DNA of 64,000 nucleotides from Chrysomallon squamiferum (lineage: Eukaryota > Animalia > Mollusca). Made by a program: the position numbers and the translations under genes. Shown here piece by piece: positions 229 to 31,750 of this stretch. The notes beneath the pieces are model-generated. The model ran no database searches and was not told the DNA's origin. It saw nothing but the letters and a program-made list of their open reading frames with translations. Location of the stretch: the NCBI GenBank assembly GCA_012295275.1, contig CM022665.1, positions 48,794,001 to 48,858,000 on the forward strand. The letters run 5' to 3'. The stretch's first letter is position 1, and the number at the start of each line of letters is the position of its first letter.

Positions 229-1469
229 CATTCAGCCGTCCACATAAACGTGTGGCCAGATTTCAACAGATGTTTCTATCTAAATTATTATAAGTATAAA
301 ATGAACCAATCAAAACACATTCTTATCTTCAACATTTCTCTGTGAATTAATTTGACAATTTTCGAAACTATAAAATAGAAAAGACAAGGTTCAGAGTTTT
401 ATTTCAAAATGAATTTCAACGTTTTCTTCTTCTGTTCGTGGTTGGCAGCATTTCCAAACAAAAGAGAGGTGACTAAATTTTTAAAATTATTATTATTATT
501 ATTATTGTTTCATTAGTTATTTTATTTTATTTTATTTTTGTATTTATTCTAAAATTAACATACACGCACGCAATCACACACATTTGGTGCTACTGTAATG
601 AATAGTATTTACTTATGTTCACAAATAAATTTGGTGAGTAAAGTTACTAGTTTTTTTCATAAGTTTACTTTTTTTTTCTTTAATTATTTTATTTTATTTT
701 ATTTTTTTTTTTCCTGTTATTTTATGTCATTTTTATTTATTTATTTATTTAGTTAGTTAGTTAGTTAGTTGAATTTCTTTTATGAATTTGATCTGTAAAA
801 CTTTGCTTTGTATGAAATCAACTTTTTTAATTCTCGTGATTTGAACGAGTTATTAATATAAGCTCATCCGATGTGTTTTGAAATACAAATGCGCTAAAAT
901 GTAAATGTTGAAACAGATGGAAGCTGCGACACGTACACACAAGCAGTAAACTAATCTATGTGCTGCCAACTGTCGTCCTCAACGAGCACAGGACGTTGAC
1001 GAATGCAAGAATCATTGTACTCGCGATCCACAGTGCTTGGTAGGAAACTACTTGCGAGTGTTTTCTGTGGACAAGCTACAGCCGTTAAAACATTCAGTCG
1101 CATGAAACTCTGTCCTCAGGGTAAGTGTTCACAGTACTGTGATTTCAGACATGATGTAGTGTTTATATCCAGGAAGCTTATGCTTTAGTGTCTACCCACC
1201 GATTTCTGTCTGTCTGTCCACCGCTCCGTCTGTCTGTCTATCTCTATCTGCCTATCTATCTATCCATCTATCTATCTATATCTATCTATCTGTTTGTCTA
1301 TCTCTCGATCTCTAAACATATTTTACTTATATTAATGGAGCAAAAATTCTATTAAAATTCTTTATATTTCTAAACCGTCATTTTATTAGTTCGGCCGACT
1401 TTTCATCAATAAACGAAGCAATAAAATGATACAATATTTACACTAGGATATTACTGTATCTTATTATAA

Positions 1470-1504
<35 letters not shown>

Positions 1505-2469
1505 AAAAACTAGTATAACAGTGTATGTTAGTTAAAACAACGTGTACACAGATTAGTATATCATTGTACACTTTTTAAAACCAACACTGTATATAACGGA
1601 ATGGAACGTATATGATTTGTTATGGTATTTGTCACAGATAATATATGTGGTCTCTTCTGCATGAATGGTGGGACTGTTAGTGACGACTGTTCTACTTGTA
1701 GCTGTGTCAAACCTTGGTCAGGACCTTTCTGTTGTAAGTAACATTTACGTGACGTGTGATTACCTGACTATTACATTTCTAATCTTGAGTAATATTTTGA
1801 TTGTTATTACAGTTCTAGTTTAGGAATAATGTTATTGTTATTTTCAATCTCAGCAGTATTATCCACAGTCTGAGAGTATTTTTGACTAACGTTTTCATGT
1901 AATGACTCTCTAATTGTTATTCGCGAATGCTGACATTTCAATAACGTTACAGATCTGATTTACTCGAGTTTTGTAGATGTGATTTTATCCAGGTTATAAT
2001 TTCGATTTCAGTTATTCTTTAGTTATTGCTATGACTAATTAATTAAATATAGATAATGATATTACGTTTTCTGTGTACATTAGACACTTTTCGTTCATTA
2101 AACATGATCCACGTATGAAACTTAATCTTCTCCTAGAAGTTACACATATCCACACCCTGAAATTATCAACGGGTTTGTTTTCAAGAACTTTTCTCCTGAG
2201 TTAAAGAAGAAAATGCGGGTTTAGACTGATACACGAATACTGATATATTTTGCAGAAAAATGTAACATCTCGTGTCATAATGGTGGAAAGAAACATGGTG
2301 CACCTTTATTTTGTTGTGAGTAAAGTTTTTAAGTAATACGATAAAGAAAACAATCAGTGAGATTTGAACACTATAGTTGAGAAACACTTCAATACGTCCA
2401 TTCCATTTAGAAAGCCTTGTAGTTACACACCATTTAATTTAAGACAATCTAGCTACAACATTTTATAGC

Positions 2470-2900
2470 CATACTGAATACAATATCATTACAATATTTA
2501 ATAACTACACTTGACATAGGATAACTACTCTTCATAATTACAGCCATCATAATAACACTGTACTTGTAAATATACTGAACACAGCATAACGTCAATGTTC
2601 TACCAGTACACTACATACAATATAACTACAAACAATGAACACAGTATAATCACATTTCACAGCTAAAACCATATCAATTACATTGTTGCTGCAATCACTG
2701 AACAAAATATTTATACAGTATTTTATGAAAACACTGAACACAATATAACTACAATGTTTTGTAACTACATGTACACAATATAACTACCATGTTTTATAAT
2801 TACACTGACCACAATATGACTAAAATAATTTATAACTACAGTGAACAGAATATAACTATAATGTTTTATAACTGGAATGAACACAAAATAACTAAAGTAT
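2470..2900 (+). repeat. Degenerate tandem repeat of about 36 bp (ACACTGAACACAATATAACTACAATGTTTTATAACT-like)
   Basis: Visible periodicity; the same repeat occurs inverted at about 24915-25110 in the equivalent intron of copy C. Confidence 0.65.
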
Positions 2901-3079
2901 ACTGTGCCAAATAAGTTTAGCAGTCACGTACACGATATGAAACACAGACAACATCATTGGATATTGAATTTATTTGTACACAGTATTCCACTGATAGAGC
3001 ATTTTTCAATGTAGCCAGCAGTAACACGTTGTCACCGTGTCAACGTCGTTGCTTTGATGTCAACTGATGAAACGGATAT

Positions 3080-3480
3080 TAAGAATATGAGGATGCTTTT
3101 CGCGTACCTACCATTCGCAAACTGAACACAAAGTGAATAGTGTCTGATCCTATTGTCAGCGTCGCCAGTGTTGGTGTATCCTGGCCCGTCTCAGACGTTC
3201 CTGAACGTGACGCGCTGTCAGAGGAACAGCTACAACAGGGCGACGTGCTTGTAATCCAGCATCAGGGAGACGGTTACGGACAGTTTGAGAGGACAGTTTT
3301 TTCCTTTTCTTTTTGGATAATGTTGGCTCACTCCATCAAAATGTGATTTCAGTACATCCTGTATTGCACGCGCTTCTTCGACATGCTTTCGGATATTATG
3401 TACTCTTTTTAATAACGTACTTATTATAGCAGATAATTGCGCTACGTTCGAAGACTGACGGGTCAGTAACCAGCCTAGTA
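3080..3480 (-). mobile_element. Degenerate Tc1/mariner (Tc1-like) transposase fragment in intron 3 of copy A
   Basis: A minus-strand frame not in the ORF track reads QTVRNRLPDAGLQARRPVVAVPLTARHVQERLRRARIHQHWRR*Q*DQTLFT. This matches the Tc1 pattern 'TVRNRL..GL.ARRP...P.LT..H...RL.WA..H..W....W..VLF'. It contains stops, and no TIRs were found. Confidence 0.75.
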
Positions 3481-5589
3481 AATAATATATGTACATGCAT
3501 TACACGTTTTAGTAAAATGTAGTTTAAACGTTTTAAACTGCTTTATATTATGAGTTCGAGGACTTATTTACATTTAGAAGAGAAAAATGCCACTTGTGAA
3601 ATTGTTTCCAGACAGTACTATTTTGTTATCATAGTTTGTTATTTGCTAGGATCTATTACAAAAAAGACTTATTATAGTTACTACGAGGAAAAAACACATT
3701 ACACACACTATAGATTCTACTAGTATATGTTGTAAAGTTAGAAACTATTTGCACACATTCTAATAAGAAATAAGAATTTGTCTTTATATTTATTACAGCC
3801 AATGACGGAAATTCAGACGGTTGTACCTGTTCTTTTTCTGGTAACTGGACGGGACTTGAATGTGGTAAATACAATATAAAATGTTTATAATATTTATTTC
3901 TTTACATAAAATGCTGAACTCATAGTCTTTTGAACTGTTAAACGTTAGGATATATCTTATAATGCTCTGCTGTTAAAACAAATCCTCAGTATCACTTAAG
4001 CTGTTTACTTTTATAACAAATCTAACTATTTTACTTACTATCACAATATCTTCTTACATTTATGACACTGTCAGGATCTCTTTACATGAAATATGTGACT
4101 CTTGTGTATCTGAAAAATAATATACTCATAAATCCATATAAAATAAATATTTCAAAATGCATAAAATATAAATAAATTGATAATATGCATCAAATATAAA
4201 GGACAATATTATTCATTTATCTGTTTATCTCTGTGTCTGTCGTTATTAATGTTTTTTTATTCGTACATTTTAGTTCAGCCATTACTCCATTAAATATGGA
4301 AAAAGAAAATCTTGCTTTTCTGACCAAAAACGAATATTTATTTCGTTTTATATAAATCGATGATCTTGATCCCAAACCTGAGAATGTTACTCATAACTAC
4401 ATGAGTCACTCAAGATTATTTTGTTTAAACTATTTTATTTTACACGCATAGATTTATAAAATAACGTATTAGCAGCTAACTGAATTTTGCACAAGAAATC
4501 TTCGTTTGATTCTCATAGCTTTCTGTTATTATTAATATTGAAGACAACTAACTAAAATTGACAAACATCCACAGTCTGAATACAGACATTTTAAAGATTT
4601 TTTTTGAACAAAGTCAACCTTAATCACAGTAAACTCATTTCAAGAGATTGTTTATCGAACTTGCTGGAACTATTCAATAATCTATTATTTTTATAAATAT
4701 CATAACACAGGTAGGTTTACTGAATTAAATATTAATAACGTGTGATTATTCTTAATCAATAAGAGTTGTCTTTCTTCATTTTTTTTTTCAAAATAAATTT
4801 TAATACTGTTAGTGAGAGTGCTCTCCCCTGAACACTGCTCTTAGTTTATATCCGTGGCCATATTAATATATTAAATTTAAATATCTGTTTTTGATTTTTT
4901 GATTTTATTTATAAATCGTCAGACCCTGCAGTTACTGAAAATATCAACTTTAACTTAAAATAATACAGAATTTATTATCATACTTTGTATTGTTTCTTTA
5001 TGTTTAACATCTTTCTAAAAATATACGAATGTCATATATTAATATTTTAGATTGGCGTTTGATAAAACATGTCTAAATCAAATATTTTGATTTCCAACGA
5101 GAACACATTGAAATGAAGGAATCTGTGGTTTAAGATTATGTAAAAAAAAATATTAAAATTGAAGTAAAAATAAAAATAAAATAAAATGTAAGACATTTAA
5201 TAAAAACAGCAACAACAACATAATTTAAAGGCATTTTACAATAAGTATTAATGCCAATAATAAAATGGTAGTTCCAGAGATTATTATACCTATTTAGCAG
5301 TGCAAACACACACAAACACACACTGATATGTTAGTTTTCTCCGAAGATCAATGACACAGAATATAAACAATATAAAAGCTGATATACTGCTTTCCTTTGG
5401 TTACAATTTCTATTTTAAGAAATATTAATATTTTAAGGATGTAATTTCTATGAATAGGTTTCAGGAATCGGTTATTTTTGAAAGCTAAGAAAATTTAAAC
5501 TAGACCATGCATTAACAACTAAACCTATTTCAAACAGGTTCCAACTTTCGGCATCACGTGACATCACGTGACAACTTCTGCAGAAAAGG

Positions 5590-5780: not shown

Positions 5781-6049
5781 AAACCTGCCTAGGCCGGGTA
5801 TAATTTTCTTCATACAAAATTGCTGAGTTCCACATATGTTGTTTACTGAAATCGTTTATTGATACTGTGATAGGATAGCTGGATAAACTGTAAGCTATAC
5901 ACAGATTGTCTTTTCTTTACTACTAACGTGTTCGCTATTTTCTTCGCACGATTGATATATACATATATTTTTATTATTATTAATTTTTTTACTCAATTAA
6001 CTGAAGTTGAAATTCTTTTCAAAATGTCAGTGTGTTTTGTTTCATATTG

Positions 6050-8100
6050 TTCTGGCCTAAACTATAATACAAACAGAAAAAAAAATAATTTTAAATGAAT
6101 AAGTGTCATCTGGAATTCAGAAAATGAGAAGTCCATCTGTAGCTTTATTTTAATTTTGTTTCACATCAGGTAGCAGATGATAACATCGTATTAGTACTAG
6201 ATTCATACTTGATGACACTACCGTTTTATTTTTTATTTTATTTTATTATTTTATTTCACTATTTCGTTATTAAATACTTTGGAACTGAAATGATATTTTA
6301 GAAATGTGAAAAAATTCCATGTTGAGACTTACTGGTTAGGTCAACATGCGAGTATTTAGAAGTCAGAACTGGAAATATATTTTCAAACGATGAAACAAAA
6401 TCAATATTTAAAAATTTTGTTCAGATAAGTCGAAGGATCTTAAAACATTTAACTATTTATTAATGATTCAGAATATATTTTGTTTTAAGTGTACAAGAAT
6501 GCATTTTATAGTAACCTAATTTATCAGTTTTGACAGAAGATAATTTATGCTTGCTTAAACCGTGCTAGTGTATGAGTCAACATTTCTGTGAAAAAGTAAA
6601 TGGCATCAGCTCAAATACACTTAACATTTCAACTTTTAACACAAAGATGTTTTTGACTTCCCTGAGTACCCTGTATTATTTATACTTCAATAATAAACAG
6701 TTTAAAACTGCTGAAAGTTGTTTTTTTCAGACAGGTGTTTTTAATTACAGTGTGTAGACTGTATTATTTATACTTCAATAATAAACAAGAATATAAAACT
6801 GCTGAAAGCTGTAGGTTACTAGCAGGTGATTTATGAGTATTTGAATGTGTGTTGTGAATCGTTTGTGACTTCTTTATTGAATCTGTTCATTGTTGCTGTC
6901 ACAACATCTGTGAATAAACAGTACGCTGTAAACAGTTTTATTTTTACATTTTTTATACTTACAAGTTTGTTACTTTATTTACAGAATAGCTTTCCTTATT
7001 CATTTTTGATGAAGTAATCGAAATTTAAATGAATATCTTCTGTTGTAAATGTTTGCAGTGTATTTTGAAAATTTCCAGATGACTGTTTTATTTATATTTG
7101 TGCGTGTAACCATAATAAAAAATGGTCAAATTAATGATTTAAGATATTTCGATTTTATTTAGACTTTGGAATCTGAAAAGCCAAGCTGTAAGTTTATTTA
7201 ATTCAGTATCACATCAGGTAGTGGATGATAACATCGTATTTGAACTAGATTCATACTTGATGACGGTCAACTAGATTTGTTTTATAAATCATTTTATTTT
7301 ATTTGAATATTTGATTTCTTTATTTTGTTTATTAAATACCGTCTTCTTCTTTTCTTCTTTTCTTGTTCTTCTTATTATTATTATTTCATTGCTAATATTT
7401 GCAGACTAACTGCAGTTACGTATGGATGATATGTACTAGTGATGTGTATGTACTAAACAATTGTAAATTATCTACAGTTTAATGATATCACATCTAGAAC
7501 TACTGAAGTTTGTTTGTTACTGGGAGGTGTTTTATTGATATCTCAAAGTGCGTTGTGAACCGTTTGTCACTTGTTTACTGAAAGTGCTCTTTGTTGCCGT
7601 CACAGCGTTTCTGAATAAACTGTAAACTGTACAGACTTTTCTCTGTATCACATCAGGTAGTAGATAAAAACATCGTATTTGTACGTGACCCGTGTTTATA
7701 CTGACCTACCTTTCTTCATGCACTAATCATTTGTTTAATAGTAACGAAACATTTTTTTTTGTTTTTGTTTTTTTTTGTTCATGAATTAACTGAAATTTAA
7801 ATGTACATCTGCTGTTTATAGTATTTTGGGTTAATTTCCAAGTGAGTGTTTTATTTTGTACTCGCCATATGTTTGAAACAAACTGGACAAATCAATAATT
7901 TTAGTGAAATTGATGTTATCTGGATTTCAAAAATTAATAAGCCAACTTGTAGCTTTATTTCAATTTGTACCACGCCAGCTAGCAGATGAGAAAATTGATG
8001 TTATCTGGATTTCAGAAATGAATAAGCCAAGTTTTAGCTTTATTTAATTTTGTATCACATCAGGTAGTAGATGGTATCATCGACTTTGTACTGGAATTAT
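6050..8100 (+). repeat. Multi-copy upstream module (AGCTTTATTT...TCACATCAGGTAG.AGATGATAACATCG) in front of copy B
   Basis: Copies at about 6140, 7190, 7645, 7950 and 8035; also about 19480 (upstream of D) and inverted at about 29400-31750 (upstream of C). Confidence 0.7.
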
Positions 8101-8130
8101 GCCTTGTCTCACAGATTTTTGAAATTATTT

Positions 8131-8185
<55 letters not shown>

Positions 8186-8336
8186 TTTTTTATTTTTTTA
8201 TTTTATTTTATTTTATTTTATATTTTATTGATTGATTCTTTGATTGATTGATTTATTTCATTTCATTTCATTTCGTTTTCATTATTTGTTGTTCATCGTG
8301 ATATTATTCTTATTATCATTATTATTATTATTATTA

Positions 8337-9557: not shown

Positions 9558-9666
9558 ATGAATTTCAACGTCGTCTTCTTCTCTGTATGTCTTCAGTCCG
9601 TGGTTGTCAGCTTATCGAAAGAAACGAGGGGTGACTAAATTCTTTAAATTATTATTATCATTATTA

Positions 9667-9740
<74 letters not shown>

Positions 9741-9766
9741 TCATTGGTGCTTTTATTTTATTTGGT

Positions 9767-9807
<41 letters not shown>

Positions 9808-10675
9808 GCTAAAATTAATATACACACACCAGCGCACGCGCACACAGTTGGTGCTACTGTAATGAATAGTATTTACTTATTGAGTAAAGTTATTAGTTTT
9901 TTTCATAAGTTTACTTTCTTTAGGCAAATATCTTATTTATTTTATTTTTATTTATATTTATATTTATATTTCTTTATTTCTTTCTTTATTTGGTTATTTA
10001 TTTATTTATTTGAATTTCTTTTATGGTCTCTTTACTTTGTATTAAATCAACTTTTTCAATTCTCGTGATTTGAACACGTTACAGATGTAAGCTCAGTCGT
10101 TGTGTTTTGAATTACAAATGAGATAAAATGTACATATTGAAACAGGTGGAGGCTGTGACACGTACGCAGAAGGAGAAAACTATTTCATGTGTAGTTCTGG
10201 TTGTCGTAATATAGCTGTAAACAGCATTCAGGAATGCAAGGACATTTGTACTAGCGAGCCACAGTGCTTCATAGGAAACTACGTCGATGAAATCTGTTAT
10301 TTGTGTCCACAAAATGTAGCCGCTTTCAAACTGTTGAAGTTGAAATATTTCGCGAAATCCTGTATTCAGGGTAAGTGTTCACAATACTTTCATTTCAAAC
10401 ATAATGTACTGTCTATATACAGCAAATTTATGCTTTAGTGACTGCCCACCGATTTCTGTCTGTCTGTCCACCGCCCCGTCTCTCTGTCTGTCTATCTCTA
10501 CTTTCCTATCTACCCATCTATCTATCTATATATATATATATATCAATATAGCTATCGGTCAGTCTATCCCTCTATCTGCCACCGATATATATTTGTCTGT
10601 CAGTCTTTCTAAGTATCTATCTTTACCTGCCTATCTTTCCATCTATATATCGATATATCTGTATCTATCTATCTA

Positions 10676-10742
<67 letters not shown>

Positions 10743-21714: not shown

Positions 21715-23207
21715 TTATTGGACTAAACAGCAGATGTGTGAACATTCGTTGTCTCCAAGTTTACTGCAGAAAGATTTTGTAGCTTTTCTTACTGCAACAC
21801 GTCGCAAGAAGAAACAACGCTTGTCGTCTACACATATACCGAACTCTGAAATACAGTGACGTCACATTTTTGTATGTTATCTCTTCAAGTATAATACATA
21901 AGACATATTTAGAATTTCTTCCTTAAAAATGTTTTGTCTTATTTTATTGTTGCTGCTTTCGTGAGAAATGGAAAAAAGTACTTTATATATATATATATAT
22001 ATATAAACATAATTTAAAACTGAGAAATGTACAAAAATGATATGATAAATAAATATCAAAATAACAACACAGACAACCTACTGACAACAGACAAAAGAAT
22101 GTTGTCTGCAGACAGCAGCAAGCATCTTTTATAAGCACAGACAGAAAACAAATAGTGTGCAGCTCAGTGACTTACAATACTTACTACAAATAACTTACCT
22201 GACGTGCATGTCCCACAAGTTTTAGAACACAGCAAAGCGTTTTGTGATGAACTTTTACACATTTCTTTAAATACTCCATCTCTCACTGCTCCAAAGTCTT
22301 CTTCACAGCCTTGAAAATGTAACAACACATTTTGTTATATATACATCTACACTTCATTATAATTATATATTAGTCACAGTTTATTACCATCGTATTTAAC
22401 TTAAATATATTATTGTTTTCATCTGTAATATTTGATTTTTATTACTATACTTTAATACATGAGTATAAAATTAGCGGAGAAATTTCTAAATAACACAGTT
22501 TGTAATAAACTTACTTTTCTCGCACTGAGATCCGTAGTAGGTTTTTTTACACGTACAGGTACACTTTGTTGCGTCTAGTATTTCGTTTTCTCCACAGTGT
22601 AAGATACACTTATCTAATAAAATACTTATTTCTCAAGTGAAAATATCAAAGGCTGTTTCTTTAATTTTTAGAGATTTAAACTTTTTTCTTATGGAATGAA
22701 AACAAAAGCAAATGAAACACACACAGTGAAAGAGAAGAAACAAAATATGGAACAAGAGATGGAAACAATTAGAAATGATTTTTATTCATCTGTTGTTGTT
22801 TTTGTTGTTGTTATTACTTTAATATTTTATGTTACTTCATCCCTAATCTGTTCTCTTACAATTCTCTAAGAGGTTTGAAAAAAAACTACTGTCTAATTAA
22901 ACTATGCACAATTCCTATTTCATCTGACGATATTTTTATCGTAATGAAACTGTTTAGATCTCGTATAGACGGATAACACATACCACAGTTATCTCCAGTC
23001 CATGGTGCGTCACATGTACACGTGTCACAAGCAGCATTGTGGGTTCCGTGATGCGAACACGTCAAACCACAAACATCTGTAATAAAGTTACAGTTTTATT
23101 TTTATACATTTATAATACAGGGTCAAGTTCTTTGATTCGTAAAATCACATATGAAAGTTAAAAAATAATAAAATAAAATAAAATAATAGAGTATTGTATG
23201 GTGCGAG

Positions 23208-23252
<45 letters not shown>

Positions 23253-26200
23253 CTGATGCTCTTAAAACAGGGCACAGTTTTATTTAATACAGGGTCCGGC
23301 TCTAATATGTCTAATCGTATGTTTCTACAAAACAAAGAAAGCTGCAATGAATGTTATGAAAATGGACAGAATGTCTAAGATGGACAAGAGCAATGGACAG
23401 CATGTTTGATATGTACAGAAGTCAGGGAGATGTACAGCAGACACGGACAGCATGAAAAGAGACTCACTGATTGCGATATCATTTATAAAATGCTGATACT
23501 ATCTGCCGAATGAAAAATATAAAATTCTGAGAAAAGTTATTCGATAACTCTGAAGACGTTTTAGAACTAATATCCTGTGTACCAGTCTCTGCCTTAATTT
23601 TTATGTACTTAAACTTTCAAGGGCTTGTTAATTAAGATCAAACATACCACAACGATCTCCAATCCACGATCCGTTACACACACAAGCATCGCAAGCAGCA
23701 TTACGAGTTCCGTGATCACCACACGTCATGTTACAAAACTCTGCCACAGAACAGAAAATACTAATCACAATACAAAGCGAAGATTCCTTGTGCAAAACTG
23801 ATTAAGTTGGTATACGTTGTGTTAAAAATCTACACGTGTAAAATAAAATAGTTTAAGTTATAGTGAGATTTGTGATATTGAGATTTATTTAAGATATAGT
23901 GAGATTTGTGATATTGAGATTTATTTAAGATATAGTGAGATTTGTGATATTGAGATTTATTTAAGATATAGTGAGATTTGTGATATTGAGATTTATTTAA
24001 GATATAGTGAGATTTGTGATATTGAGATTTATTTAAGATATAGTGAGATTTGTGATATTGAGATTTATTTAAGATATAGTGAGATTTGTGATATTGAGAT
24101 TTATTTAAGATATCGTGAGATTTGTGATATTGAGATTTATTTAAGTTATAGTGAGATTTGTGATATTGAGATTTATTATAAAAGTAAATAGCTATTGTAA
24201 TAGTGAAAGTTGTTACAACAGTAAACAGACAGTAATTTTAAGATTTGTTATAACAGTAAATATATATTGTGATTGTAAGATCTGTTATAATAGTAAACAG
24301 ATATTGTGATATGAGGTTTGTATTAAAAGTAAACAAATATTTTGATAGTGAGATTTGTTATAAAAAGTAAATAGTTTATAAAAGTAAACAGTTTAGTGAA
24401 ATGCATTATAAGATATCTACTGACCTCTGATAGTTTAAAAGACTATGAGTTCAGTATGTTGTATAACTTAGTTAATATTATATATATTTTATGTTATCGT
24501 ATTTACCACATTCAGATCCTTTCCAGTTACCAGCACATGAACAAGTACAACCTGTCACATGAGACTGGTCATCGCCTTCTGCAATAAATATAAACATTCA
24601 GATTATTTATTTGAATATGGCTGTGCAAATAGTTTTATAACTATAAAACATACACTACAGTAAAGCTTAGTTTTGGTGGTCGAACGAATATCCTATGTAT
24701 ACATACATATATATATATATCTTTGTTGTCTTTTGTACTTCCAAGTTACAAAAATAAAGGGTTTTTCAGATTGATCATCACAAACGACAGAGCATGTTCT
24801 CGTCTACTTCAGTGTACAAAACACATACTTACAGGGATATGTTATATAAGGCTGCCTTTGTGGCCTGAAGCCTTTCAGATTTTCCATTTTAGTTGCATTG
24901 TGTTCATTTTAGTTGTAAAACATTGCAGTTACATTGTGTTCAGTGTACTTATAAACGTTGAAGATATATTGTGTTCAGTGTAGTTATAAAACATTGTAGA
25001 TACAAAACATTGTTATTATTTTGTGTTCAGTGTAGTTATAAAGAATTATAGCTATATTTTGTTCAATGTAGTTATAAAACATTGTAGTTATAAAGAATTA
25101 TAGTTATATTTTTTCACTTGTCATGTTAACTAAAATCTTTAGTCTTTCTTATATTACTTGGAAATGTCACTCACTACAATATCGTTTTGCATTCTGTTTG
25201 CCTCCATTTTGACACGTGATGTTGCATAGTTCTGAGATAAGAGAAAAGTAGAATTCGTGTATCAGACTAAACTGTATTTTTTAAACTCATAATAACTGTT
25301 ATTTAAAAGATACAAACATCATTGTGGACATATTTTACAAAAGAATGACGCTGTATACAAATGTGATGGTTTTTTTTGTGACTAAAGGGAAGTTTATCAT
25401 GTACAAATTAAAAAAAAAAAAAAAAAAAAAATTTGCGATTATAACATCACTGACTTCATAAGACCTAAAACAAAACTTTAGTCCATATAATGTTACTGGT
25501 GAAATGAGAAACTATAACTACAATGTTAGTGAAATGACAACTACAACATTATTTTAAATCACAGCTACAGGTTTAACTAAGTTACAAATCCCACGTTAAT
25601 TAAATGACAACACCAACATTGCTGAACCTTAAAAAATTCATAACAAGAACGAAAGTTAAAACAGTACTTAACATTATTGAAATTACAAATTTACATCAAA
25701 TATCAGCCATACATTTCTGAAACTTCAATAATATTACAATAATAGATTTACTGAAATCAAAACTGTAGTATTACGGTAATTACGTATAAAATAATTGTTA
25801 CTTACCACAGAATGTTCCTGTCCAAGGGTTGACACAGCTACACCTAGTACATTCACCATTAATAGTCCCACCATTCAAACAGGCAACACCACAGATATTA
25901 TCTGAGACAGTAACATACAATACATTGACTCTGGTTTTAAATAATATACAATATTATAACAGTTTGTGTATACGTTGTTTTAAATAATATACAATATTAT
26001 ATAAGTTTGTGTACACGTTGTTTAAACAATATAGTGTTATATTAGTTTGTGTACAAGTTGTCTAATATAACATACAGTGTTATACCGGTTTGTGTACACG
26101 TTGTTTTAAATAATACACAGTGATATACTAGTTTGTGTACACTTTTTAAATAATACACAGTGATATACTAGTTTGTGTACACTTTTTAAATAATACACAG

Positions 26201-27598
26201 TGATATACTAGTTTGTGTACACTTTTTAAACAATATACAGTGTTGTACCAGTTTGTGTACACGTTGTTTTAAATAATATACAGTGATATACTAGTTTGTG
26301 TACACTTTTTAAACAATATACAGTGTTGTACCAGTTTGTGTACACGTTGTTTTAAATAATATACAATATTATACCAGTTTGTGTATACGTTGTTTTAAAC
26401 AACATCCAGTGTTATACTAGTTTGTGTACACGTTGTTTTAAATAATATACAACAGTATGGTAGATTGTGTACAGCTTTTAAATATTATACAGAATTATAC
26501 CAGTTTGTGTACACGTTTTTCAAATAATATACAATATTACAGTGGTTCGGGTACAGCTTTTAAATAATATACAGTTTTATACCAGTTTGTGTACACGTTT
26601 TTTAAATACTATACAGTGTAATACCAGTTAGTGTACACGTTTTTTAAATACTATACAGTTTTATACCAGTTAGTGTACACGTTTTTTAAATACTATACAG
26701 TTTTATACCAGTTAGTGTACACGTTTTTTAAATACTATACAGTTTTATACCAGTTTGTGTACACGTTTTTCAAATAATATACAGTTTTATACCAGTTTGT
26801 GTACACGTTTTTTAAATACTATACAGTTTTATACCAGTTAGTGTACACGTTTTTACGTTGTGTAGCGTAATCACAGCGTTTTAATATTTATGTAAAATTT
26901 AGTACAGCAGATAACAGTGGACAAGAATGGGTTTCTGATGTATACACATTACACGACTGTCAACACTTACCCTGAGGACAGGACTTTGCAAAAAATTGTA
27001 TTACACTGTTTCTCTCAACGTAGGTAAGGTTTTTATGCAGAAGACAAAGAGGTATGGCATACTCTCCCGCTGTGCATTGTGGGTCAGCAGTACACTTCCT
27101 CTTGCATTCATCCAAGCTGTTTACTGTGCTAGTGTCTAATGTGACCTCAGGACAGCCTGCAATTTGCTTTTCGTCGACGTACGTGTTGCAAACTCCACCT
27201 AGTTTAATATTTGAAACATATCTCATTTGTATTACGAAATAAAGCGACTTTTATTTCTAAAGTTAACTTGTTAACATGCTAAAAATCATCAAAATCAGAA
27301 AGTTACGGACTAGAATTATGAAGTAAGTTACTGACTTGGAAGTAACATTATTACTGAACCAAAAATAAATAATATTCGCTACAAGAGCCAAGCAACAAAC
27401 AAACACCAATCCTTATATACATAAGAAAGGTAGAAAACGAACAAAATCTGTTAGAATGAGCAGAAAAAAGGAAAATAATAAAATAATAATAATAATAATA
27501 ATAATAATTTAAAGAATACAGTCACCTCTCTTTTGCTTGAAAATGCTGCCAACCACGAACGGCAGACATAAGGTGAAGAAGAAAATGTTGAAATTCAT
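21715..27598 (-). CDS. Copy C: secreted Cys-rich modular protein, 331 aa, with one extra EGF exon; exons 27598-27526, 27198-26971, 25901-25806, 24578-24507, 23740-23648, 23076-22984, 22613-22515, 22309-22199, 21845-21715
   Basis: GT-AG phase-1 introns give a 996-nt open frame. It reads MNFNIFFFTLCLPFVVGSIFKQKR (hydrophobic signal peptide then KR), the PAN-like exon GGVCNTY...NSLDECKRKCTADPQCTAGEY...FAKSCPQ (ORF track 26960-27226), EGF exons, a ShK-like exon ending CSKTCGTC, and a terminal exon identical to that of copy B. Confidence 0.85.
23858..24178 (+). repeat. 36-bp minisatellite (TATAGTGAGATTTGTGATATTGAGATTTATTTAAGA) in a copy C intron
   Basis: About 9 near-perfect units. Confidence 0.95.
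25935..26855 (-). repeat. 36-39-bp minisatellite in intron 2 of copy C (same family as 11020-11430)
   Basis: CCAGTTTGTGTACACGTTGTTTTAAATAATATACAG-like units; reverse complement of the copy B array. Confidence 0.9.
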
Positions 27599-29379: not shown

Positions 29380-31100
29380 ATGTTTAGCAGAGCTGTCATC
29401 AAGTGTGTCTGTTGTACAAAAACGATCTTATCATGTACTACCTGGCGTGATACAAAATTCAATACACCACAGCTTGCTTTTCCATTTTCTCAACAACACA
29501 AAACATCGTTTTATCTAAAAATATTAACTTGTTCAGGTTGTTTTATGGATATGACAAGCGTGATATGAAACAATAATTTGAAAATTCACAACATATATTG
29601 TCAGTTTGTATCACGAAAGATATACATTTAACTTCAGTTAATTCAGCTGTTTGGTAACAAACAAGAAGGTGTTAAAAAAAAAGACAGTATATTAAACAAA
29701 TGCAGTCAGTGTCATCAAGTATGAATCTAGCTCAAACACGATGTTATCATCTACCACCTGATGTCATAAAAACTGAAATAAACCCAGAGCTTGACTTTTC
29801 ATTTTCTGAACTGCATAGAACAGAGAAATTTCAAAAATTATTAATTTCTTCAGTTTGTTTTATGGATATGACAAACACGAAATAAAACAATCATTTGGGA
29901 ACTTTACAAATACGTCGTCAGTTTGTAAACCTGCATAAATACGTTTAAGCTGCAGTTAATTCTTTAAATAAGAAATGTATAGCAATTTTGTGAACAAACT
30001 CAACGAACTTGTTGGTATTAAAGAAAGAAAGAAAAAAAACCCAGAACAAAACAAAATATTAAATAAATGTCAGCTTTATCAACAGTGAATCAAGTACAAA
30101 CACGATGTTATCATCTACCAGCTGGCGTGATACAAAATTCAGTACACTTCAGCTTGCTTTTCCACTTTCTCAACCACACCACGCATCGTTTTATTTGTTT
30201 AAAAGCTCCAAATAACAGTGGTCAAGATATGGTATTAGTAAATATTCAAAAATTAACAGCTGCTTAGTACATACAGAGAACTAATAAATATCATATTAAT
30301 ATAGCTTCCGTACACAACTGCTGTTAGTCAACAAATAACAATAACAACAACAACAACAACAACAATAAAAATAATAATAATGATAATAATAATAATGAAT
30401 TAATTAGTTAATTAATTGATTAAATAATCAATTATAGAAATGAAATAAAAAGTGGTCAGTGTCATCAAGCATGAATCTGGTACAAACACGATGTTATTAT
30501 CTACTGTCTGATGTGATACGAACAGAAATAAAGCTGCAACCTGACTTTTGATTTTCTGAACTGCCGAGAACATGTATTTATCTAGAACTGTTAATTTGTT
30601 CAGTTTGTTCTATGGTTATAACAAACACGAAATAAAACAATCATTGAGAAATTTACAAACACATTGCCAGTTTTTACATCCGCGGATATACATATATAGA
30701 ACAACAAAAAATACGTTGTCACCTTCATCACGTGTGAATCAAGTACACGATGTTATCATCTACCACCAATGTGAAACAAAATTAAATAAAGCTACAGCAT
30801 GTTAATATAGGGTGCACATGAAATTAAAAACACTTTTCTGTTAAAAGTTTAAATGTTATCTATATTTAAGCTGCTGTCATTTACCGTTTCCTACAAATAT
30901 TGACTCGTATACATGCACTGTATAAGCAAACATAAGTAATCTCACAGGCATATTTTGTTCTGTTAAAATTATTTAATTTATATAATATAATACTGATAAA
31001 TTCTGTTACCATGAAATGCATAACTGTACACTAAAAACAAAAAATATTCTGAAACATTAATAAATATGTAAAAAAATGTGTTTTATTTTAGAACTGTTTA

Positions 31101-31135
<35 letters not shown>

Positions 31136-31414
31136 AGCTTAGCTTTTTAACATTCTTCGACTTATTTAAACAAAATTTTTAAATATTGATTTCTTTTCAT
31201 CTCTTGAAAATACATTTCCAGTTCTGACTTACAAAGACTCGCATGCTGATCTTAACAGTAAGTCTGAACATGGATTTCTTTTCATCTTTTTTGTAGTAAT
31301 AGTTGTCAAGATGTGGTATTACTAAACAGAAAATTAACAGCTGTTTAATACGTACACACAACTAATAAATATCATATAAATATAGATTACATATGTAACA
31401 GTTGTTAGTCAACA

Positions 31415-31492
<78 letters not shown>

Positions 31493-31750
31493 AAGAAGAA
31501 GAAGAAGACGGAATTTATTAAATCAAATAAAGAAACCAAATAATAAAATAAAATAAAATAAAATAAAACGTTTTATTTAACAAAGCTAGGTGAGCGTCAC
31601 CAAGAATGAATGTGATAAAAATACAGTTTTTTCATCTACCATCTGATGCGAAACAAAACTGAACAAAGCTACAGCTTGACTTTTCTGAAGTCCAGATAAC
31701 ATCGATTTTACCATCTAGTACCTGAAGTGATGCAAATTGGAATAAAACAA
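29380..31750 (-). repeat. Inverted paralog of the upstream module region of copy B
   Basis: Repeated CGATGTTATCATCTACC..CTGATGTGATA units; 31145-31280 is the reverse complement of 6310-6445. Confidence 0.7.

What the first reader, a model, noticed from the sequence alone, without database searches (positions are those of the whole stretch)
9558..27598. Hidden secreted family: PAN/apple head, EGF stalk, ShK-toxin-like and cationic Cys tail
Seen: two intact genes (B on +, C on -) assembled from short phase-1 exons that the ORF track mostly misses. The penultimate exon ends CSKTCGTC. Known: sea-anemone ShK toxin ends CRKTCGTC, PAN/apple domains mediate protein or glycan recognition, and symmetric phase-1 exons are the hallmark of exon shuffling. 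Inference: this is a targeting head on an EGF spacer carrying toxin-like domains, possibly a venom, salivary, mucosal-defence or immune effector family. I do not recognise this domain combination as a named family.
Basis: partly seen in the sequence, partly recalled or inferred. Interest (0 to 1): 0.85.

Follow-up and report, generated by a model that had tools for sequence, protein, structure and literature searches.

The report
Snail PAN-EGF-ShKT-like secreted gene cluster
Two intact sister genes and one truncated copy, likely from a deep-sea vent snail, encode cysteine-rich proteins (binding-type PAN head, EGF rod, ShK-like tail) that are predicted to be secreted and are likely mucus or surface binding proteins, not toxins; RNA confirms the splicing of one gene and hints that the truncated copy splices into it.

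Summary
The genes are real. B (+) has 9 coding exons (317 aa) and C (-) has 10 (350 aa), all joined in phase 1. PAN and EGF modules are supported. The ShK-like exon has 5 of 6 cysteines and no tyrosine, so no Lys-Tyr dyad. The last exon (net +4) has no true homolog among 1.84 billion proteins. The neighbouring TRANK1-like gene is 81% identical to Gigantopelta aegis, which points to a peltospirid-like vent snail, a grazing or symbiont-fed group, so venom is unlikely. New points: an upstream copy A has lost exons 6-9; RNA joins an exon-5 end to a 225-nt piece that fits B exon 2 (A-to-B read-through, circular RNA or an internal duplication); the B and C tails are homogenised (dS 0-0.05) while the heads are 35% identical. 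The closest known kind is molluscan CAP-ShK type II, with PAN in place of CAP. This is a new variant of a known kind, and its function is inferred.

The parts
9558..9630 (+). Gene B exon 1: predicted signal peptide ending in a basic motif
10146..10370 (+). Gene B exon 2: PAN/apple domain, 9 Cys, 225 nt
   Evidence: Pfam PAN_1 E 0.012; apple-domain hits E 0.05-0.9; length fits the unseen piece in RNA record 1
11488..11583 (+). Gene B exon 3: EGF-like 1
   Evidence: RNA joint 11583-12100
12100..12159 (+).
   Evidence: RNA joints on both sides
12519..12584 (+). Gene B exon 5: second half of split EGF 2
   Evidence: RNA joint 12159-12519 and loose end equal to the start of exon 6
13727..13819 (+). 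Gene B exon 6: EGF-like 3
   Evidence: Pfam EGF_2 22.7 bits, above cut-off 22.1; RNA
14434..14532 (+). Gene B exon 7: EGF-like 4
   Evidence: weak; RNA joints on both sides
14969..15079 (+). Gene B exon 8: five-cysteine ShKT-like module without Tyr
   Evidence: 3 of 3 PDB sequence hits are ShK-type peptides, E 0.57-0.73; no Pfam hit; RNA
15326..15456 (+). Gene B exon 9 coding part: unassigned six-Cys module (spacing 5-15-7-3-0), net +4, stop
   Evidence: no true homolog; RNA
15779..15860 (+). Gene B non-coding 3' exon (extent of the RNA contig; true end not known)
   Evidence: RNA joint 15459-15779 GT..AG
27526..27598 (-). Gene C exon 1: predicted signal peptide
26971..27198 (-). Gene C exon 2: PAN/apple domain, 7 Cys, 35% identical to B's
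25806..25901 (-). Gene C exon 3: EGF-like 1
25175..25231 (-).
   Evidence: homology to B and A exon 4; not RNA-tested
24507..24578 (-). Gene C exon 5: second half of split EGF 2
23648..23740 (-). Gene C exon 6: EGF-like, 91 of 93 nt identical to B exon 6
22984..23076 (-). Gene C exon 7: extra EGF-like module absent from B
22515..22613 (-). Gene C exon 8: EGF-like, counterpart of B exon 7
22199..22309 (-). Gene C exon 9: ShKT-like, 110 of 111 nt identical to B exon 8
21715..21845 (-). Gene C exon 10 coding part: 131 of 131 nt identical to B exon 9
409..3864 (+). Copy A: exons 1-5 only (409-468, 917-1120, 1638-1733, 2256-2315, 3799-3864); in this window exon 1 is out of phase and exon 2 has stops in all three frames
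   Evidence: exon 4-5 join seen in RNA from an A-like allele
4425..5323 (+). Deletion scar of copy A: intron-5-like DNA (4425-4507) followed by DNA like B's downstream flank (4685-5323); exons 6-9 and the UTR exon absent
20450..20532 (+). Orphan, out-of-phase copy of exon 1 with its donor site; no exon 2 follows on this strand

Best explanation
B and C are intact sister genes, B shown to be spliced, for cysteine-rich PAN-EGF-ShKT-like proteins that are predicted to be secreted and likely act as soluble binding and cross-linking proteins of mucus or an epithelial surface in what is likely a vent snail. Shown: the exon structure, B's splicing from exon 3 to the 3'UTR, the PAN and EGF modules, divergent heads and near-identical tails. 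Inferred: the signal peptide is removed; the PAN head binds glycans or proteins on microbes or matrix, with different specificity in B and C; four or five N-glycosylated EGF-like modules form a spacer; the odd cysteine count (45 in B, 49 in C after exon 1) leaves at least one free thiol, most simply in the five-Cys ShKT-like module, which would form disulfide-linked dimers or tie the protein into a mucus network. The family grows by local duplication of symmetric phase-1 exons, and gene conversion between the inverted B and C copies likely keeps the tail uniform. Copy A lost its terminal exons, so its exon 5 likely splices onto B exon 2 and would give a two-headed form in alleles where A's 5' exons are open.
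For: Exon models and phases. RNA joints. PAN support from three tools. No hydrophobic 19-aa window above 0.72 in any exon after exon 1, and 4 NxS/T sequons in each protein. An extra Cys sits in the EGF-2 loop of A, B and C and in PAN of both B and C. Tail dS 0-0.05 against 0.11-0.86 in exons 1-3, 5 and 7, with identity running into intron flanks at B8/C9 (59/60 and 60/60). Host near Gigantopelta aegis. Precedents: limpet pedal-mucus proteins with a galactose-binding domain plus 5 EGF, and with a dyad-less ShKT that the authors suggest forms disulfide bridges (PMC7333891 passages); oyster CAP-ShK type II genes are mantle-specific (PMC6409789 section 8); PAN mediates protein or carbohydrate binding (PMC7588048 passages).
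Against: No tissue, ligand or protein data. Secretion rests on hydropathy, not SignalP. Both PAN hits are under Pfam's cut-off. Only single exons could be used as queries, which weakens the 'no homolog' result. Splicing was seen in one run only, as contigs at depth 6-12, and no C junction was seen directly: in X1 exon 6 runs unbroken into B exon 7. PAN dN/dS is 0.96 and pooled 0.77, with no significant excess of replacements, so selection on the heads is not shown. The disulfide pairing is pure inference.
Confidence: 0.45

Rival explanations
1. Immune or symbiont-control effector: the PAN head recognises bacteria and the conserved tail, perhaps released by proteolysis, kills or restrains them.
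For: Variable head on an invariant tail; last exon net +4 with a predicted helix at residues 15-29; aurelin, an ShK-fold antimicrobial peptide (function recalled), is among the 3 weak hits for exon 8; peltospirids use many pattern-recognition proteins for symbiosis (PMC7895826 passages); PAN-lectin genes are immune candidates in Biomphalaria (PMC13712769 passages).
Against: Charge is modest and amphipathicity is not above shuffles (818 of 2000); exon 8 is net -1; tail identity includes silent and intron sites, which points to conversion and not to selection; seen in 1 of 3 RNA runs, tissue unknown.
Confidence: 0.22
2. Shell, scale or periostracum matrix protein secreted by mantle or foot epithelium.
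For: EGF and PAN domains occur in lophotrochozoan biomineral proteomes (PMC13425148 passages); oyster CAP-ShK type II is mantle-specific; lineage-specific genes are slightly more frequent in the biomineralising tissues of a peltospirid (PMC7142155 passages).
Against: No acidic or low-complexity tract and no chitin-binding, vWA or ZP hit in any exon; no tissue data.
Confidence: 0.15
3. An ordinary member of a wider mollusc family with this architecture that single-exon searches could not reach.
For: Queries were 42-75 aa and word-limited (1 and 8 candidates); most ShKT proteins of molluscs are uncharacterised automated predictions; unnamed PAN clusters score 0.94-0.95.
Against: An index-free HMMER search of 1.84 billion representatives with exon 9 gave 2 hits, both unrelated repeat proteins; no named gastropod protein appeared for B's PAN exon; three paper searches for the domain combination gave 0.
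Confidence: 0.12
4. Venom or salivary toxin: the ShK-like module blocks potassium channels and PAN targets it.
For: CxKTCGTC ending shared with ShK-type peptides; Cumia salivary CAP-ShK type II proteins mix EGF and atypical ShKT modules, and lack of the dyad does not exclude channel activity.
Against: 5 of 6 Cys and no Tyr; no Pfam ShK hit; net -1; host group grazes or is symbiont-fed, with no venom apparatus known to me (recalled); dyad-less AsK132958 is inactive on Kv channels.
Confidence: 0.06

Closest known systems
Molluscan CAP-ShK type II proteins (Cumia reticulata CreCAP-ShK 4-7; Conus Mr30/Tex31 clade; PMC6409789)
   Same: Secreted, similar size (295-452 aa for CreCAP-ShK as a whole), one N-terminal binding domain followed by EGF-like modules, poorly recognisable ShKT modules and unassigned cysteine arrays; lineage-specific duplication of the Cys modules.
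   Different: The head is PAN/apple, not CAP; no Pfam CAP hit in any exon scanned; the modules are ordered EGF x4-5, ShKT-like, unknown; the host is not a blood-feeder.
Limpet pedal-mucus proteins P-vulgata_13 and _14 (PMC7333891)
   Same: Gastropod mucus proteins with a sugar-binding domain plus 5 EGF (13), or with a dyad-less ShKT (14).
   Different: Different heads (galactose-binding; astacin, ApeC, CUB, kringle, sushi, C-type lectin), much longer, and neither has PAN.
ShK/BgK type 1 potassium-channel toxins and ShKT domain (PF01549, accession recalled)
   Same: C-x9-C-x3-C-x2-C ending with KTCGTC; only PDB sequence hits are ShKT-Ts1, aurelin and Hui1.
   Different: One of six Cys missing, no Lys-Tyr dyad, embedded in a 317-350 aa protein, no Pfam hit.
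PAN/apple recognition proteins of snails (Biomphalaria FREP1 with PAN; PAN plus C-lectin gene models)
   Same: PAN module in secreted or immune-candidate snail proteins; one- versus two-repeat forms are disputed for the PAN-lectin gene.
   Different: No fibrinogen, IgSF or C-lectin domain here.

Membership tests
ShK-type Kv toxin | six cysteines, three disulfides | tested here: not met
   5 Cys, spacing 15-9-3-2; second Cys absent in alignment to ShKT-Ts1
ShK-type Kv toxin | Lys-Tyr functional dyad | tested here: not met
   no Tyr and no K/R followed by an aromatic or Leu in exon 8; dyad defined in PMC5793123
ShK-type Kv toxin | Kv channel block | not testable with these tools
   needs electrophysiology
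ShKT domain superfamily | sequence profile match | tested here: inconclusive
   no Pfam hit, but 3 of 3 PDB hits at E 0.57-0.73 are ShK-type; non-canonical ShKT modules lacking Cys occur in snails
ShKT domain superfamily | ShK fold | tested here: inconclusive
   single-sequence model, pLDDT 59, two helices; best Z 4.1 to generic helical hairpins
PAN/apple domain | profile match and core C-x3-C-x5-C pattern | tested here: met
   pattern present in B and C; Pfam E 3.2e-4 just under cut-off; Atlas 0.95 with 173 shared features, 10 of 10 named hits in one family or clan
PAN/apple domain | glycan or protein binding | not testable with these tools
   needs binding assays
EGF-like repeats | six-Cys EGF pattern and profile match | tested here: met
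   B exon 6 above the PF07974 cut-off; 6 other whole-EGF exons give weaker EGF-family hits; the two exon-5 halves give none
CAP-ShK type II | N-terminal CAP domain | tested here: not met
   exon 2 is PAN; no CAP hit in 13 B and C exons scanned
CAP-ShK type II | C-terminal mix of EGF, atypical ShKT and unknown Cys arrays | tested here: met
   against the description
Secreted soluble protein | cleavable signal peptide, no transmembrane segment | tested here: inconclusive
   hydrophobic exon 1 and no hydrophobic 19-mer within later exons; SignalP not available

The most novel reading that the evidence does not exclude
A vent-snail family of symbiont- or microbe-recognition proteins with exchangeable PAN heads on a shared, conversion-homogenised effector tail that ends in an undescribed six-cysteine module, caught in the act of exon shuffling: a duplicate that lost its last exons reads through into its neighbour and yields a two-headed protein that segregates among individuals.
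Probability: 0.17. Interest if true: 0.7.

Novelty: new variant of a known kind. Interest (0 to 1): 0.4.

Why it matters
It is an RNA-supported gene family that ORF calling misses, with a domain order found neither in the databases nor in the papers searched, and with an orphan cysteine module at the C-terminus. If the A-to-B read-through holds, the locus is a directly testable case of domain multiplication by partial duplication plus loss of the terminal exon, made possible by symmetric phase-1 exons. It also shows why a CxKTCGTC motif alone does not make a toxin. Lineage-specific secreted Cys-rich mosaics are common in molluscs, which limits the surprise.

Tried and rejected
No whole genome is held, so family size outside the window is unknown. 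Word-indexed protein searches among longer proteins: exon 9 gave 1 candidate and 0 hits; B exon 2 gave 8 candidates and 0 hits. Index-free search with exon 9: 2 hits, both long tandem-repeat proteins of a bird and a fish, rejected as artefacts. ESM Atlas for exon 9: no usable hit, recognition 1456. PDB sequence search: exon 9 none at E<=10; exon 6 none at E<=0.01. Single-sequence models of exon 9 (pLDDT 64) and exon 8 (pLDDT 59): Foldseek 0 matches and VIA best Z 3.7 for exon 9, VIA best Z 4.1 for exon 8, all uninformative. Idea that exon 9 is a duplicate of exon 8: no BLASTP alignment; local score reached by 576 of 5000 shuffles and by 725 of 5000 with Cys fixed; not supported. Positive selection on heads: dN/dS 0.96 (PAN), 2.15 (B7/C8, p 0.51), pooled 0.77; not shown. 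Metagenome scan with the PAN alignment: 172 pattern matches, 0 confirmed. AATAAA scan uninformative in this AT-rich DNA. Runs X3 and X4 gave no exon joints, which is no proof of absence. Earlier findings of the scan: nothing in 4 look-ups. Paper searches for the combination: 0 papers; one search listed 2 papers, judged off-topic by title and abstract start. PMC5549309 and PMC12964963 passages added little (ShK-domain metalloproteases in mussel digestive gland). No supplements were opened; gene tables in the supplements of PMC7142155 and PMC7895826 might hold tissue expression for such genes.
Full report
Setting. The window is AT-rich animal DNA. From about 36.4 kb to the end lies a TPR, ankyrin and UvrD-helicase gene. 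Its helicase exon is 81% and 79% identical to two 'TPR and ankyrin repeat-containing protein 1-like' proteins of Gigantopelta aegis; the next molluscs are at 64-66% (best 120 of 798 listed). The host is therefore likely a close relative of this peltospirid vent snail; the species is not established. In that group Chrysomallon lives on endosymbionts and Gigantopelta grazes and then switches to endosymbionts (PMC7895826, passages). No genome is held for the window.

Observation. Snapping to AG/GT gave gene B (+) with 9 coding exons, 954 nt, 317 aa, and gene C (-) with 10, 1053 nt, 350 aa; all introns are phase 1. Exon 4 carries the first two cysteines of an EGF whose other four lie in exon 5, plus one extra cysteine found in A, B and C.

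RNA test. Four runs were found and laid on 13690-15930 and 11440-12770. In X1, one 520-nt contig spans B exons 6, 7, 8, 9 and a non-coding exon with four GT..AG skips. A 476-nt contig skips introns 3 and 4. A 59-nt contig joins exon 5 to exon 6. So 6 of 8 coding junctions are seen, in 1 of 3 RNA runs. X2 covers introns and shows none of these joints. Junctions 1-2 and 2-3 of B and all of C lay outside the two stretches. These are contigs at depth 6-12 and give no strand, level or tissue. One loose end before exon 6 looks like a C-type exon 5, a weak hint that a C-like copy is expressed. Against this, the exon 6-9 contig is not broken by a branch into C exon 7.

Domains. Exon 1 is hydrophobic (best 9-mer 2.2 and 2.4) and ends in basic residues; no later exon has a 19-mer above 0.72. 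Exon 2 is PAN: Pfam PF00024 E 3.2e-4 (C, 20.9 bits against cut-off 21.4) and E 0.012 (B), Atlas PAN clusters at 0.95, and weak hits to apple domains of kallikrein, factor XI and MIC4. EGF_2 passes its cut-off for B exon 6, and weaker EGF-family hits cover 6 other exons. The penultimate exon gives only three PDB sequence hits, all ShK-type (ShKT-Ts1, aurelin, Hui1; E 0.57-0.73), and no Pfam hit. It has 5 Cys, net charge -1 and no Tyr. Lys22-Tyr23 are the key residues of ShK, and a dyad-less anemone ShKT peptide was inactive on Kv channels (PMC5793123, passages), although PMC6409789 (section 8, part 1 of 2) cautions that lack of the dyad does not exclude activity. The last exon has six Cys (spacing 5-15-7-3-0), net +4 and unremarkable amphipathicity. 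It has no relative in Pfam, the PDB, the Atlas, the word-indexed set, or 1.84 billion representatives, where both hits were repeat artefacts. Models of the two tail modules were low-confidence and uninformative.

Evolution of the locus. B and C face each other. Their PAN exons are 35% identical in protein, while exon 6 (91/93 nt), the ShK-like exon (110/111) and the last exon (131/131) are nearly the same. Silent divergence there is 0-0.05 against 0.11-0.86 in exons 1-3, 5 and 7 (exon 4 is saturated), and at the ShK-like exon identity extends 60 nt into both introns. This is the mark of gene conversion, not of selection alone. An assembly artefact is less likely, because in X2 single contigs carry these exons with C-type intron sequence at their loose ends. 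dN/dS is 0.96 for PAN and 0.77 pooled, with no significant excess of replacements.

Copy A. Upstream on + lies a third copy with exons 1-5. In this window its exon 1 is out of phase and exon 2 has stops in all three frames. It has no exons 6-9: intron-5-like DNA at 4425-4507 is followed by DNA like B's downstream flank at 4685-5323. A is not silent in all animals. An X1 contig joins a piece identical to the last 30 nt of A exon 4 to an exon 5 that shares its three listed variants with an X2 contig, and 9 of the 12 listed variants of that X2 contig are those of window A. The 476-nt X1 contig begins with the end of an exon 5, then 222 letters that were not displayed, then B exon 3. With the three boundary letters that fit both sides this is 225 nt, the length of B exon 2 (C's is 228, A's 204). 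The contig is unbroken there, so no exon 1-2 join of B was retained in that assembly. The simplest reading is A exons 1-5 spliced to B exons 2-9, a two-PAN form, which is what loss of A's terminal exons would cause. A circular RNA of B exons 2-5, or an internal duplication in that individual, fits the contigs equally. The joined exon-5 end matches B and the X1 allele but differs from window A by one base, so it does not decide. I put read-through at about 55%.

Mechanism. Best reading (0.45): a soluble, glycosylated adaptor of mucus or an epithelial surface. The variable PAN head binds, the EGF rod spaces, and the tail with an unpaired cysteine dimerises or cross-links (45 and 49 Cys after exon 1). 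All functional steps are inferred. Support by analogy: limpet mucus holds a galactose-binding plus 5-EGF protein and a dyad-less ShKT protein (PMC7333891, passages), and oyster CAP-ShK type II genes are mantle-specific. Rivals: antimicrobial or symbiont-control effector (0.22), hard-part matrix protein (0.15; PMC13425148 and PMC7142155 passages), ordinary wider family missed by short queries (0.12), Kv toxin (0.06).

Comparison and novelty. The nearest described kind is molluscan CAP-ShK type II: a head domain followed by EGF-like, poorly recognisable ShKT and unknown Cys arrays (PMC6409789, passages). It fails membership because the head is PAN. PAN occurs in snail immune candidates with other partners (PMC7588048 and PMC13712769, passages). 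Three full-text searches for PAN/apple with ShK and EGF returned 0 papers; the library lacks most subscription journals and no supplements were read. Verdict: a real, expressed, apparently lineage-specific new variant of a known kind of mollusc mosaic protein; toxin claim unsupported; interest 0.4.

Noticed in passing
window 36441-63022 (+): Multi-exon TRANK1-like gene (TPR, ankyrin, UvrD helicase); helicase exon 81% identical to Gigantopelta aegis, and most of the 120 listed hits are unnamed ~1090-aa proteins from ENA/Logan assemblies at 55-58% identity.
   Followed up: partly
window 20450-20532 (+): Orphan, out-of-phase copy of the family's exon 1 with upstream similarity (20364-20555 resembles 309-491) and no following exons: a fourth, decayed duplication.
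   Followed up: partly
window 14422-14510: Runs X1, X2 and X3 each hold an unspliced contig matching part of exon 7 with 5-9 differences, and X1 and X3 share the same unrelated loose end after 14510: a further family fragment outside this window.
   Followed up: no
window 1590-1838 vs 11440-11688: A and B exon 3 with flanks are 99.2% identical while their exons 2 and 4 are 74% and 68%: a second conversion patch.
   Followed up: partly
window 12713-12760: Short remnant resembling the 3' end of exon 6 and its donor inside B intron 5, just before a 31-bp tandem array (12775-13672).
   Followed up: no
window 11021-11431 and 25935-26854: The same 42-43-bp minisatellite sits in intron 2 of B and C with different copy numbers (about 10 and 22), and a single unit in A.
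   Followed up: no
window 6033-8200, 19360-19520, 29400-31750: A dispersed ~150-400-bp repeat family occurs in several copies on both strands around the cluster.
   Followed up: no
window 3000-3480: GC-richer ~480-bp insert in A intron 4 without counterpart in B or C, possibly a mobile-element fragment.
   Followed up: no
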